Source of the DNA: Heteronotia binoei
Lineage: Eukaryota
Assembly (NCBI RefSeq): GCF_032191835.1
Contig: NW_026800309.1
Location: forward strand, 62,001 to 126,000
Length of the DNA: 64,000 nucleotides
Direction: 5' to 3'
Below, piece after piece: positions 9,001 to 12,000 of the stretch (its first letter is position 1; each line of letters begins with the position of its first letter). The position numbers were made by a program.

Positions 9001-12000
9001 GTGTCACATAAAAACATAAGAGAAGCCCTGTTGGATCAGGCCAGTGGCCCCTCCAGTCCAACACTCTGTGTCACATAAGAACATAAGAGAAGCCATGTTG
9101 GATCAGGCCAGTGGCCCCTCCTGTCCAACACTCTGTGTCACATAAGAACATAAGAGAAGCCATGTTGGATCAGGCCAATGGCCCCTCCAGTCCAACACTC
9201 TGTGTCACATAAGAACATAAGAGAAGCCCTGTTGGATCAGGCCAATGGCCCCTCCAGTCCAACACTCTGTGTCACATAAGAACATAAGAGAAGCCATGTT
9301 GGATCAGGCCAGGGGCCCCTCCTGTCCAACACTCTGTGTCACAGAAGAACATAAGAGAAGCCCTGTTGGATCAGGCCAGTGGCCCCTCCAGTCCAACACT
9401 CTGTGTCACATAAGAACATAAGAGAAGCCCTGTTAGATCAGGCCAATGGCCCCTCCAGTCCAACACTCTGTGTCACATAAGAACATAAGAGAAGCCCTGT
9501 TGGATCAGGCCAGTGGCCCCTCCAGTCCAACACTCTGTGTCACATAAGAACATAAGAGAAGCCCTGTTGGATCAGGCCAGTGGCCCATCCAGTCCAACAC
9601 TCTGTGTTACAGAAGAACATAAGAGAAGCCCTGTTGGATCAGGCCAGTGGCCCCTCCAGTCCAACACTCTGTGTCACATAAGAACATAAGAGAAGCCCTG
9701 TTGAATCAGACCAATGGCCCATCCAGTCCAACACTCTGTGTCACAGAAGAACATAAGAGAAGCCCTGTTGGATCAGACCAATGGCCCATCCAGTCCAACA
9801 CTCTGTGTCACAGAAGAACATAAGAGAAGCCCTGTTGGATCAGGCCAATGGCCCATCCAGTCCAACACTCTGTGTCACATAAGAACCTAAGAGAAGCCAT
9901 GTTGGATCAGGCCAGTGGCCCATCCAGTCCAACACTCTGTGTCACAGAAGAACATAAGAGAAGCCCTGTTGGATCATGCCAGTGGCCCATCCAGTCCAAC
10001 ACTCTGTGTCACATAAGAACATAAGAGAAGCCCTGTTGGATCAGGCCAGTGGCCCATCCAGTCCAACACTCTGTGTCACATAAGAACCTAAGAGAAGCCA
10101 TGTTGGATCAGGCCAGTGGCCCATCCAGTCCAACACTCTGTGTCACATAAGAACATAAGAGAAGCCCTGTTGGATCAGGCCAGTGGCCCCTCCAGTCCAA
10201 CACTCTGTGTCACATAAGAACATAAGAGAAGCCATGTTGGATCAGGCCAGTGGCCCCTCCAGTCCAACACTCTGTCACATAAGAACATAAGAGAAGCCCT
10301 GTTGGATCAGGCCAATGGCCCCTCCAGTCCAACACTCTGTGTCACATAAGAGAAGCCCTGTTGGATCATGCCAGTGGCCCATCCAGTCCAACACTCTGTG
10401 TCACATAAGAACATTAGAGAAGCCATGTCGGATCAGGCCAAAGGCCCATCCAGTCCAACAGGGCTTCTCTTATGTTCTTAGCAGACAAGAGCCAGTTGCT
10501 CAGGGGCCTGATAGGAGCCCTCTAGGGGCCAAATTTGGCACATAGGCCGCATGTTTGACACCCCTGCCTTAGAGCTTAGGCCCAAGTCAGTGGGGAATGC
10601 CAAATAAAGTATTTGCAATTAAATTAAACCAAAGAACTGGAGCATTACATCTCCTTGTGGGAACACCAGAAACACTTGAGGGAGCAGGAGTCATTGCTTA
10701 TTATTAACCAATTTATAGAGACTTTCCTGCTGGAAGAGTAGGGATTTGAGGAAGGCGTTGAAGAGAAGGCCCAGAGGTCCCTCAAGCAAGTCAAAAGGGG
10801 CAATTGCTAGGGTTGCCAAGTCCAGTTCAAGAAATATCTGGGGACTTTGGGGGTGGAGCCAGGAGACTTTGGGGGTGGAGCCAGGAGCAAGGTTGTGACA
10901 AGCATCATTGAACTCCGAAGAAGGGAGTTCTGGCCATCACATTTAAATGGATCTTTTCAATGCCTTCCCTCCATTGGAAATGAGGGGTGGGGCACCTTCT
11001 TTGGGAGGTCATAGAATTGGACGCCCTAGTCCAATCCTTTTGAAACTTGGAGGATATTTAGGAGAGAGACACTGAACGCTATTCTGAAAATCTGGTGCCT
11101 CTACCTCAGAAAACAACCTCCCCAGAGCCCCAGATACCCATAGATCAATTCTCCATTACATGCTATGGAAATCGATCTACGTATGGAATAATGGAGTGCC
11201 CAGCAGACATTTCCCCCCCACTACTTTCTGATGACACTGAAGCGGGGGGGTCCCCTGTCCCCACCTGGGGACTGGGAACCCTATCTTTGGGGCAGCCTTT
11301 CATTGCTGGCCCTTTGGTCGTGCCCAAGTTGGCCTGCTTCTAGAGAACAGTGTCGTATTCAGAATCCTAAAGGCGTGGCTTCTTTCCTGCCGGCCCAGTT
11401 TGTGGCCCACCCCATCTGCCAGCAAGTCCTGTCCTCCATCTGGTGCGGGAGCCTGCAGAGCTGGCGGGGCAGCAACAGTGCCTGGAAGGTCTTCATCTCC
11501 TGCGCCATCTTCCTCCTGATGCCCCTCTTGTGCCTGGTCTACTGGGTGGCCCCCAAGTCCAAGGTGAGTGGATCCCGCGCAGGTGTGCAGTTAGGCGGAA
11601 GCGAATCCCCAGCGTGTCCAAAGTCCCTCTTGCCAGGATATTTGAAGCTGTGCAGGGCCCAGGCTTTGCGTGTCATTGTGCACTGGACTCAAGTGAAGTA
11701 GGGTGGCCAAGTCCAACTCAAAAAATATCTGGGGACTTTGGGGGTGGAGCCGGGAGGCCTTGGGAGTGGAGCCAGGAGACTTTGGGGGTAGAGCCAGGAG
11801 ACTTTTGGGGGTGGAGCCAGGAGACTTTGGGGGTAGAGCCGGGAGACTTTGGGGGTGGAGCCAGGAGACTTTGGGGGGTAGAGCCGGGAGACTTTGGGGG
11901 TGGAGCCAGGAGACTTTGGGGGTAGAGCCGGGAGACTTTGGGGGTGGGGCCAGGAGACTTTGGGGGTAGAGCCGGGAGACTTTGGGGGTGGAGCCAGGAG

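What the first reader, a model, noticed from the sequence alone, without database searches (positions are those of the whole stretch)
11284..11698. Intact orphan TRPC2 exon between two hAT MITEs
Seen: a 165-nt exon with canonical acceptor and GTGAGT donor and no stops. It encodes the pre-S1 segment of a TRPC2-type channel and sits in the 415-bp gap between two same-orientation MITEs. I find no neighbouring TRPC2 exon in 11 kb upstream or 52 kb downstream. Known: TRPC2 is the vomeronasal transduction channel, and in mammals it lies in the same chromosomal region as the class I OR/beta-globin cluster. Inference: a remnant of a duplicated or relocated TRPC2, a transposon-captured fragment, or one exon of a gene with huge introns that nests RPS11 and ORs. 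The MITE outer flanks show no matching 8-bp TSD, so composite transposition is unsupported.
Basis: partly seen in the sequence, partly recalled or inferred. Interest (0 to 1): 0.65.

Follow-up and report, generated by a model that had tools for sequence, protein, structure and literature searches.

The report
Stray copy of one TRPC2 exon
A single intact exon of the pheromone-channel gene TRPC2 sits alone between two small transposons in a gecko smell-receptor cluster, and it looks like a stray duplicate of a complete gene that lies elsewhere.

Summary
Window 11399-11563 (+) is a 165-nt, stop-free exon with an AG acceptor and a GTGAGT donor. Its 55 residues match residues 312-366 of XP_060119751.1 (TRPC2-like, Heteronotia binoei) at 55/55. 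All 120 listed hits with a source name are TRPC2 or unnamed channel models. PDB paralogues TRPC6/4/3/5/1 are much weaker.

The exon lies in a 415-bp gap between two complete, same-orientation hAT-type MITEs (10808-11283 and 11699-12933). No other TRPC2 exon is in the 64 kb.

The "one exon of a gene with huge introns" reading is not supported. The full 892-aa model lies on a 912,876-bp contig. The window's own OR proteins lie on a 193,125-bp contig.

My best reading is a DNA-level, exon-sized duplicate of the TRPC2 pre-S1 exon. It is stranded in a class I OR cluster, 1.7 kb upstream of a genuine multi-exon RPS11, and is probably non-functional. Neither MITE has its 8-bp target-site duplication, although a third family copy has a perfect one. 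This suggests the breakpoints lie in or at the MITEs, but that is inference.

I could not reach the parent locus DNA, so nucleotide identity, age and an assembly artefact remain untested. This is an ordinary kind of feature and of low to moderate interest.

The parts
10808..11283 (+). Left hAT-type MITE (L). It is 476 bp and complete from 5' TIR TAGGGTTGCCAA to 3' ...GGGAACCCTA. It carries 2 copies of the internal 22-bp unit. It has no matching 8-bp TSD (GCAATTGC / TCTTTGGG, 3 of 8).
11284..11398 (+). 115 bp of unique, intron-like sequence upstream of the exon. It ends in a polypyrimidine tract and the AG acceptor.
   Evidence: (no other copy in the window)
11399..11563 (+). TRPC2-derived exon of 165 nt (55 codons), phase 0-0. 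It encodes the pre-S1 segment FVAHPICQQ...YWVAPKSK and is 55/55 identical to residues 312-366 of XP_060119751.1.
11564..11698 (+). 135 bp of unique, intron-like sequence downstream of the exon, starting with the GTGAGT donor.
11699..12933 (+). Right hAT-type MITE (R) of the same family and orientation, 1235 bp, TIR to TIR. Its internal 22-bp unit is expanded to 26 copies (11734-12309). About 200 bp of foreign, partly palindromic sequence sits near 12371-12581. It has no matching TSD (AAGTGAAG / GGGAGCAA, 3 of 8).
47962..48470 (+). Reference copy (C1) of the same MITE family, 509 bp, with a perfect 8-bp target-site duplication CTTCTAAA. It defines the element termini and the hAT-type TSD length.
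13274..18388 (+). Context: a genuine multi-exon RPS11 (uS17) gene. The start-codon exon is 13274-13288, exon 2 starts at 14828, and further coding pieces lie at 16473-16544 and about 18257-18388. The last exon was not mapped. SNORD35 copies sit in introns at 15678-15772 and 17224-17315.
3113..4063 (+). Context: an intact class I-type olfactory receptor. Its 90% cluster holds 'OR52P1-like' proteins from four other gecko species. Further ORs lie at 38311-39300, 49959-50729 (truncated) and 57264-58229.

Best explanation
This is a DNA-level duplicate of a single exon of TRPC2, together with 115 bp and 135 bp of its flanking introns. The exon encodes the segment just before transmembrane helix S1. 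The copy sits in a class I olfactory-receptor cluster of a gecko, most likely Heteronotia binoei, 1.7 kb upstream of the RPS11 start codon.

The complete TRPC2 gene lies on another scaffold, so this copy is a gene fragment. It has no promoter of its own, no start codon context and no partner exons, and it most likely does nothing.

The unique segment ends exactly at the tips of two old hAT MITEs, and neither MITE has its target-site duplication. I therefore infer that the fragment arrived, or was trimmed, by a rearrangement whose breakpoints lay in or at MITE copies. Candidate rearrangements are ectopic recombination or gene conversion between MITEs at the TRPC2 introns and MITEs here, or transposase- or repair-associated flanking deletion.

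Shown: the exon's identity, its isolation within the window, the MITE anatomy, the TSD failure, and the different contig sizes. Inferred: the species, that the copy is the derived one, that it is non-functional, and the MITE-mediated mechanism.
For: - The exon is 55/55 identical to XP_060119751.1 residues 312-366, and identity stops exactly at the AG and GT.
- Only 1 of 120 listed hits is identical. The other geckos score 52-53/55.
- No other TRPC2 exon is found with 6 squamate TRPC2 queries at relaxed settings.
- P0002 is recorded on one contig of 912,876 bp. The window's OR proteins 3113-4060 and 38311-39297 are recorded on one contig of 193,125 bp, with names masked as the window's own.
- P0002's 90% cluster has 1 member, and the window OR clusters hold no second name-masked member. 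The window is therefore not a redundant haplotig of an annotated TRPC2 region.
- It is not a retrocopy. Intron flanks and splice sites are present, and the neighbouring exons are not contiguous.
- L and R are complete copies that are only 76-90% identical to each other. Family copy C1 has a perfect 8-bp TSD, whereas L, R and the L-R composite score 3/8, 3/8 and 2/8.
- In Paroedura picta, Gekko kuhli and Eublepharis macularius, the TRPC2 (or XNDC1N-TRPC2) protein and the orthologous OR52P1-like protein lie on contigs of the same chromosome-scale length. Their accession numbers are 40-144 apart. A short-range move within one region is therefore plausible.
Against: - I could not read the parent locus. 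Nucleotide identity, the extent of shared flank, and whether MITEs flank the parent exon are all unknown.
- Assigning the window to H. binoei, and the two contigs to one assembly, rests on the 100% exon match and on masked names. It is not stated by any record.
- An exon identical at all 128 non-synonymous sites, with both splice sites intact, is also what a used exon would look like. Non-function is therefore assumed, not shown.
- The TSD argument rests on one intact reference copy (C1).
- Off-register 6/8 matches exist near L. With 49 register pairs compared per element, I judge these to be at chance level.
- The search with the 169-aa frame that includes the intron flanks gave only 9 unnamed hits covering 34-56% of the query. 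That says nothing about the parent locus.
Confidence: 0.68

Rival explanations
1. It is the working exon of the one TRPC2 gene. Its partner exons would lie more than 11 kb upstream and more than 52 kb downstream, or on neighbouring scaffolds of a fragmented assembly, with RPS11 and ORs nested in its introns.
For: - The exon is 55/55 identical to the annotated protein.
- It has perfect splice signals and is phase 0-0.
- TRPC2 and this OR family share a chromosome in other geckos.
Against: - The full-length model is recorded on a 912,876-bp contig and the window's ORs on a 193,125-bp contig. A gene model cannot span two contigs.
- The model is not flagged as low quality in its name.
- Four ORs and a TOP-type housekeeping gene on the same strand would have to sit inside its introns.
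- No second exon appears in 64 kb.
Confidence: 0.06
2. It is an assembly artefact. A 415-bp piece of the TRPC2 locus was joined into this contig through MITE repeats on both sides.
For: - The unique segment is bounded on both sides by repeats.
- Neither repeat has a TSD, which is what chimeric joins inside repeats would also produce.
- The contig is small (193,125 bp).
- The window contains one N run.
Against: - Two independent false joins within 2.1 kb would be needed.
- There is no N at either junction.
- MITE copies in the window are only 72-90% alike over long stretches. That is too divergent to mislead a modern assembler, unless the parent's MITEs are much closer to L and R.
Confidence: 0.09
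3. The copy is used. It would be spliced as an exon into another transcript, such as an upstream exon of RPS11, a 5' exon of a downstream OR, or a non-coding RNA.
For: - The acceptor and consensus donor are intact, and there is no amino-acid change from the parent.
- It is on the same strand as RPS11 and 1.7 kb upstream of it.
- Its phase-0 end matches the phase-0 start of RPS11 exon 2 at 14828.
Against: - Among proteins of 98-2000 aa, the only 100% hit to the exon is XP_060119751.1, on another contig.
- In the 92-296 aa range, the 169-aa frame found only unnamed partial hits.
- No annotated product of this contig was therefore seen to contain the exon in the length ranges searched. Models shorter than 92 aa were not covered.
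- RPS11 has its own start-codon exon and a pyrimidine-tract start region at about 13250.
- Phase compatibility has a one-in-three chance.
- Zero changes is expected for any copy younger than roughly 10-45 Myr.
Confidence: 0.1
4. The two MITEs moved the exon as a composite hAT transposon, or a single MITE captured it (transposon capture or transduplication).
For: - Two complete same-orientation copies of one hAT-type family bracket the exon.
- The family was mobile, as shown by the perfect TSD of C1.
Against: - The outer flanks match at 2 of 8 positions.
- L and R are 76-90% identical to each other, so they are much older than a copy with no amino-acid change.
- Same-orientation copies place one 5' and one 3' end outside, which is compatible with composite transposition. 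Even so, no second copy of the L-exon-R unit is in the window.
- Genome-wide copy number could not be checked.
Confidence: 0.05

Closest known systems
TRPC2 (short transient receptor potential channel 2), specifically XP_060119751.1 of Heteronotia binoei
   Same: The 55 encoded residues are identical to residues 312-366. The exon boundaries coincide with where similarity to the spliced protein stops. The top listed hits are TRPC2 orthologues from reptiles, amphibians and fishes.
   Different: Only 55 of 892 residues are present. The window has no ankyrin repeats, TRP_2 domain, transmembrane core or TRP box. It is a fragment of the gene, not a channel gene.
Duplicated gene fragments (unprocessed partial pseudogenes) at segmental-duplication or repeat-mediated breakpoints
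   Same: It is a genomic copy that retains intron flanks and splice sites, is bounded by interspersed repeats, and lacks the rest of the gene.
   Different: The copy is unusually small, at one exon and 415 bp. It ends exactly at MITE tips. No change in the encoded peptide is visible.
Exon capture or transduplication by DNA transposons (Pack-MULE, Helitron and hAT chimeric elements; recalled, not looked up here)
   Same: A host exon is bracketed by terminal-inverted-repeat elements of one family.
   Different: The exon lies between two complete elements, not inside one. The unit has no TSD, and no evidence of amplification was found.
Other TRPC paralogues (TRPC3/6/7, TRPC1/4/5)
   Same: The homologous pre-S1 segment aligns end to end, for example TRPC6 377-431.
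   Different: TRPC6 has about 26 of 55 identical residues (my count), against 41-55 of 55 for the TRPC2 hits.

Membership tests
TRPC2 (as origin of the exon) | Closer to TRPC2 orthologues than to any other TRPC paralogue | tested here: met
   Among the 120 listed hits, those with a subfamily name are all TRPC2 or XNDC1N-TRPC2, at 41-55/55 identity. PDB paralogues TRPC6/4/3/5/1 reach only E 1e-8 to 1e-4.
TRPC2 (as a functional channel gene) | Full architecture: ankyrin repeats, TRP_2 domain, six-helix Ion_trans core and C-terminal TRP region | tested here: not met
   The parent protein has Ank_2, TRP_2 and Ion_trans. In the window only residues 312-366 are found, and the exon peptide alone matches no Pfam model.
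TRPC2 (as a functional channel gene) | Expression and splicing in vomeronasal neurons | not testable with these tools
   No transcript data were available.
hAT-superfamily MITE | 8-bp target-site duplication | tested here: inconclusive
   It is met for family copy C1 (CTTCTAAA, 8/8). It is not met for L (3/8) or R (3/8).
hAT-superfamily MITE | Short terminal inverted repeats (the YARNG start is recalled, not looked up), small size and no transposase | tested here: met
   The TIR is about 12 bp, TAGGGTTGCCAA, at both ends of L and C1. The elements are 476-509 bp. ORFs across L and R have no Pfam match.
Composite (two-element) transposon | Matching TSD outside the two elements | tested here: not met
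   GCAATTGC versus GGGAGCAA match at 2/8.
Processed pseudogene (retrocopy) | Contiguous exons without introns, lacking splice signals | tested here: not met
   Similarity to the spliced protein stops at the AG and GT. Residues 305-311 do not align. Intron-like flanks are present.
RPS11 / uS17 host gene (context) | Interrupted coding exons matching S11, with an intronic SNORD35 | tested here: met
   Ribosomal_S17_N and Ribosomal_S17 match in three separate pieces. The 14825-14968 piece matches 40S S11 in the PDB at E 4e-26. There are two SNORD35 hits above the gathering score.

The most novel reading that the evidence does not exclude
This could be exon shuffling caught early. A symmetric (phase 0-0) exon with intact splice sites was moved by recombination between hAT MITEs from TRPC2 into the region just upstream of RPS11. 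There it is phase-compatible with RPS11 exon 2, or could serve as a 5' exon of a class I OR. It would already be spliced into a new transcript. This would give a datable vertebrate example of MITE-mediated exon relocation.
Probability: 0.06. Interest if true: 0.6.

Novelty: new member of a known kind. Interest (0 to 1): 0.25.

Why it matters
As it stands, the finding matters mainly for annotation. A stray, perfect TRPC2 exon can seed false 'TRPC2-like' partial models or inflate copy counts in studies that score vomeronasal gene loss or gain in squamates.

If the parent locus shows the same MITEs around the original exon, the site would be a clean, small example of repeat-mediated relocation of a single exon in a vertebrate. 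The missing target-site duplications would then act as a footprint of that event.

Tried and rejected
1. **More TRPC2 exons.** I ran tblastn with P0002 at E<=10. I then ran 6 squamate TRPC2 or XNDC1N-TRPC2 proteins with word size 2 and E<=100 (1547 raw rows). I kept rows with E<=1, or with >=70% identity over >=10 aa.
   - Nothing credible was found besides the exon.
   - A repeated weak hit at 54667-54762 (13/36 identical, one gap, E 0.56) crosses the exon boundary. I rate it as chance.
   - An 11-aa 82% match at 18903-18935 has E 42.
   - Hits from the N- and C-terminal low-complexity tails fall in the 22-bp repeat array and the GC-rich region. I treat these as compositional.
2. **Parent-locus information from read-through ORFs.** I searched the 169-aa frame 11192-11698. 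It gave 9 unnamed hits covering 34-56% of the query and none full-length. I did not use these records further.
3. **TSDs in other registers**. The best match was 6/8 off-register for L and 5/8 for R. I judge these to be at chance level.
4. **Pfam on the exon peptide alone** gave 0 families.
5. **RPS11 start by motif.** The pattern ATGGCNGAYAT gave 0 matches. The start was then read directly as ATG GCG GAC ACG CAG|gt at 13274.
6. **Literature.** Searches returned no title or abstract about a TRPC2 exon duplicate in geckos.
   - I saw listings only, except for PMC3170594, where I read passages. Those passages say that TRPC2 and XNDR lie on separate scaffolds in Anolis.
7. **Not done.**
   - Spliced models of RPS11, or of TRPC2 plus anything else, were not joined. 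Exons were searched one at a time.
   - The N run was not filled.
   - No structure prediction or complex prediction was run, because neither would bear on the question.
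Full report
**What is there**

Window 11399-11563 on the + strand is a 165-nt open segment that translates to FVAHPICQQVLSSIWCGSLQSWRGSNSAWKVFISCAIFLLMPLLCLVYWVAPKSK. It is preceded by CTTCTTTCCTGCCGGCCCAG and followed by GTGAGTGGA.

The peptide aligns end to end with the pre-S1 part of solved TRPC channels, for example TRPC6 377-431 at E about 1e-8. On its own it is too short to hit any Pfam model.

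**Which TRPC**

I searched about 5.8 billion proteins, restricted to longer proteins, and got 353 hits. The best is XP_060119751.1, 'short transient receptor potential channel 2-like [Heteronotia binoei]', 892 aa, at E 4.9e-28 and 100% identity.

I re-aligned the 120 listed hits:
- 1 of 120 is identical at 55/55.
- The next best are other geckos: Paroedura at 53, and Euleptes and Gekko kuhli at 52.
- The remaining hits range from 41 to 49.

TRPC6 shares about 26 of 55 residues, by my count from the alignment printed. In the parent protein the segment (residues 312-366) lies between TRP_2 (178-240) and the Ion_trans core (385-644). 'Pre-S1 of a TRPC2-type channel' is therefore correct.

**Is it alone?**

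tblastn of the H. binoei protein against the window finds only this exon (E 2e-30). Similarity breaks off exactly at the splice sites.

A relaxed run with six squamate TRPC2 or XNDC1N-TRPC2 proteins added nothing credible. A recurring weak match at 54667-54762 has E 0.56, contains a gap and crosses the exon boundary. I treat it as chance.

The 162-base N run at 46464-46625 was left as it is and is the only part of the window not examined.

**Where the rest of the gene is**

An exact-sequence look-up places XP_060119751.1 on a single contig of 912,876 bp. Two OR proteins encoded by the window (3113-4060 and 38311-39297) are recorded on a single contig of 193,125 bp, with their names masked as the window's own.

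The complete gene model, which contains the same 55 residues, is therefore on a different scaffold. This removes the 'huge introns nesting RPS11 and ORs' reading, unless the two records belong to different assemblies, which I could not check.

The window is also not a redundant copy of an annotated TRPC2 region. The TRPC2 cluster has one member, and the window's OR clusters hold no second unnamed member.

I infer that the window is H. binoei from two things. One is the unique 55/55 match. The other is that H. binoei is the gecko missing by name from the OR cluster that contains the window's own protein. This is an inference, not a statement in any record.

**Surroundings**

I scanned 150 of the 182 stop-to-stop ORFs of at least 90 aa against Pfam. 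The features found, including those from the other calls cited below, are:
- Four class I-type ORs on the + strand: 3113-4063, 38311-39300, 49959-50729 (truncated) and 57264-58229. The first belongs to a cluster named OR52P1-like in four other geckos.
- LINE reverse-transcriptase fragments.
- A genuine, interrupted RPS11.

For RPS11, the start codon is at 13274 (ATG GCG GAC ACG CAG|gt). It lies just downstream of a CCTCTTTCC tract in a GC-rich region. Exon 2 starts at 14828. Further S17_N and S17 pieces lie at 16473 and about 18257-18388. The 14825-14968 piece matches 40S S11 in the PDB at E 4e-26. Two SNORD35 copies lie in its introns.

I searched the RPS11 exons one by one.

The TRPC2 exon thus lies between an OR and RPS11, on their strand, 1.7 kb upstream of the RPS11 start codon.

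**The flanking repeats**

Self-comparison defines a MITE family with at least seven copies or fragments in the window.
- L (10808-11283, 476 bp) and R (11699-12933, 1235 bp) are both complete from TAGGGTTGCCAA to the inverted ...CCCTA, and both are in the same orientation.
- R is longer because its internal 22-bp unit is expanded to 26 copies, against 2 in L. It also carries about 200 bp of foreign sequence.
- Copy C1 (47962-48470) has a perfect 8-bp duplication, CTTCTAAA, at its ends. This supports the hAT-type assignment and fixes the termini.

Measured against those termini, the TSD scores are:
- L: GCAATTGC / TCTTTGGG, 3 of 8.
- R: AAGTGAAG / GGGAGCAA, 3 of 8.
- The outer flanks of the pair: 2 of 8.

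The added finding is that neither element has its own duplication.

**How I think it arose**

L and R are only 76-90% identical to each other and 72-84% identical to most other copies, so they are old.

The exon, by contrast, shows no change at about 128 non-synonymous sites or at its four splice-site bases. If the copy were unconstrained, that sets a rough 95% upper bound of about 11-45 Myr. This assumes rates of 2e-9 to 0.5e-9 per site per year, and those rates are my own assumption.

The MITEs therefore probably predate the copy. A unique segment that ends exactly at the tips of two old MITEs, each lacking its TSD, is what I would expect if the breakpoints lay within MITE copies. That could mean ectopic recombination or gene conversion between MITEs flanking the exon in the TRPC2 introns and MITEs at this site. 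Alternatively, sequence next to the outer MITE ends may have been deleted later.

This step is inference. It makes a sharp prediction for the parent locus (see next steps). A retrocopy is excluded by the intron flanks and splice sites.

In three other geckos, TRPC2 and the orthologous OR lie on contigs of the same chromosome-scale length, and their accession numbers are 40-144 apart. This fits a short-range move within one chromosomal region. Reading accession order as gene order is my assumption.

**Function**

The fragment has no partner exons. It encodes a membrane-embedded piece that is meaningless alone. It sits upstream of a housekeeping promoter. I take it to be non-functional. The look-ups found no product of this contig that contains the exon, but they did not cover proteins shorter than 92 aa.

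The intact splice sites and phase 0-0 symmetry leave a small chance that it is spliced into another transcript. Its phase matches RPS11 exon 2, but that match has a one-in-three prior.

**What stayed unchecked**
- No tool gave access to gecko genomic DNA. Nucleotide identity to the parent, genome-wide copy number, read support for the assembly, expression and fine synteny are all open.
- An attempt to reach the parent locus through read-through ORFs found only 9 partial, unnamed hits.
- Literature searches listed no report of such a fragment. I read passages only of PMC3170594. It notes that TRPC2 and XNDR lie on separate scaffolds in Anolis but flank each other in most vertebrates.
- Supplements were not consulted.

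**Verdict**

This is a familiar kind of genomic debris, neatly preserved. It is of modest interest unless expression or the parent-locus comparison shows more.

Noticed in passing
window 87-1535 (+): There is a tandem array of 11-13 tRNA-like units, spaced about 113-167 bp apart (137 bp for the first five). ARAGORN reads them as tRNA-Thr with anticodon GGT, and Rfam tRNA scores are 41-64 bits. By my recollection, vertebrates do not normally use a GGT-anticodon Thr tRNA, so this looks like a tRNA-derived satellite or SINE-head array rather than working tRNA genes.
   Followed up: partly
window 15678-15772 and 17224-17315 (+): Two SNORD35 box C/D snoRNA copies (48 and 62 bits, gathering score 36) lie in successive introns of RPS11. 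As I recall, mammalian RPS11 hosts one (SNORD35B).
   Followed up: no
window 3113-18388: A genuine multi-exon RPS11 lies inside a class I OR cluster, with ORs on both sides and on the same strand. As I recall, mammalian RPS11 is on a different chromosome from the class I OR/TRPC2 region, so this would be a lineage-specific gene order.
   Followed up: no
window 49959-50729 (+): This OR reading frame stops after 256 codons and covers only positions 1-221 of the 280-position 7tm_4 model. It is probably an OR pseudogene.
   Followed up: no
window 57264-58229 (+): This is an intact 321-aa OR whose exact sequence is not in the protein collection, unlike the two other intact ORs of the window. It may be unannotated, or annotated with another start.
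   Followed up: no
window 10000-10460: A 67-bp tandem repeat of 7 copies with 90% matches lies just upstream of the left MITE.
   Followed up: no
window 12371-12581 and 4377-4633: The extra 200 bp inside the right MITE is partly self-complementary (12377-12506) and resembles 4377-4633 on both strands at 68-72%. This suggests a second small palindromic element nested in R.
   Followed up: no
window 45294-46103 and 46464-46625: The only N run of the window (162 bases) lies just downstream of a LINE reverse-transcriptase fragment. I left it unfilled.
   Followed up: no
P0002 (XP_060119751.1), residues about 671-692: The H. binoei TRPC2-like model carries 22 extra residues between ...NSFQKIE and NDADVEWKF... 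that are absent from the Paroedura and Euleptes proteins. This may be a retained intron piece or an alternative splice site in the model (by eye).
   Followed up: no
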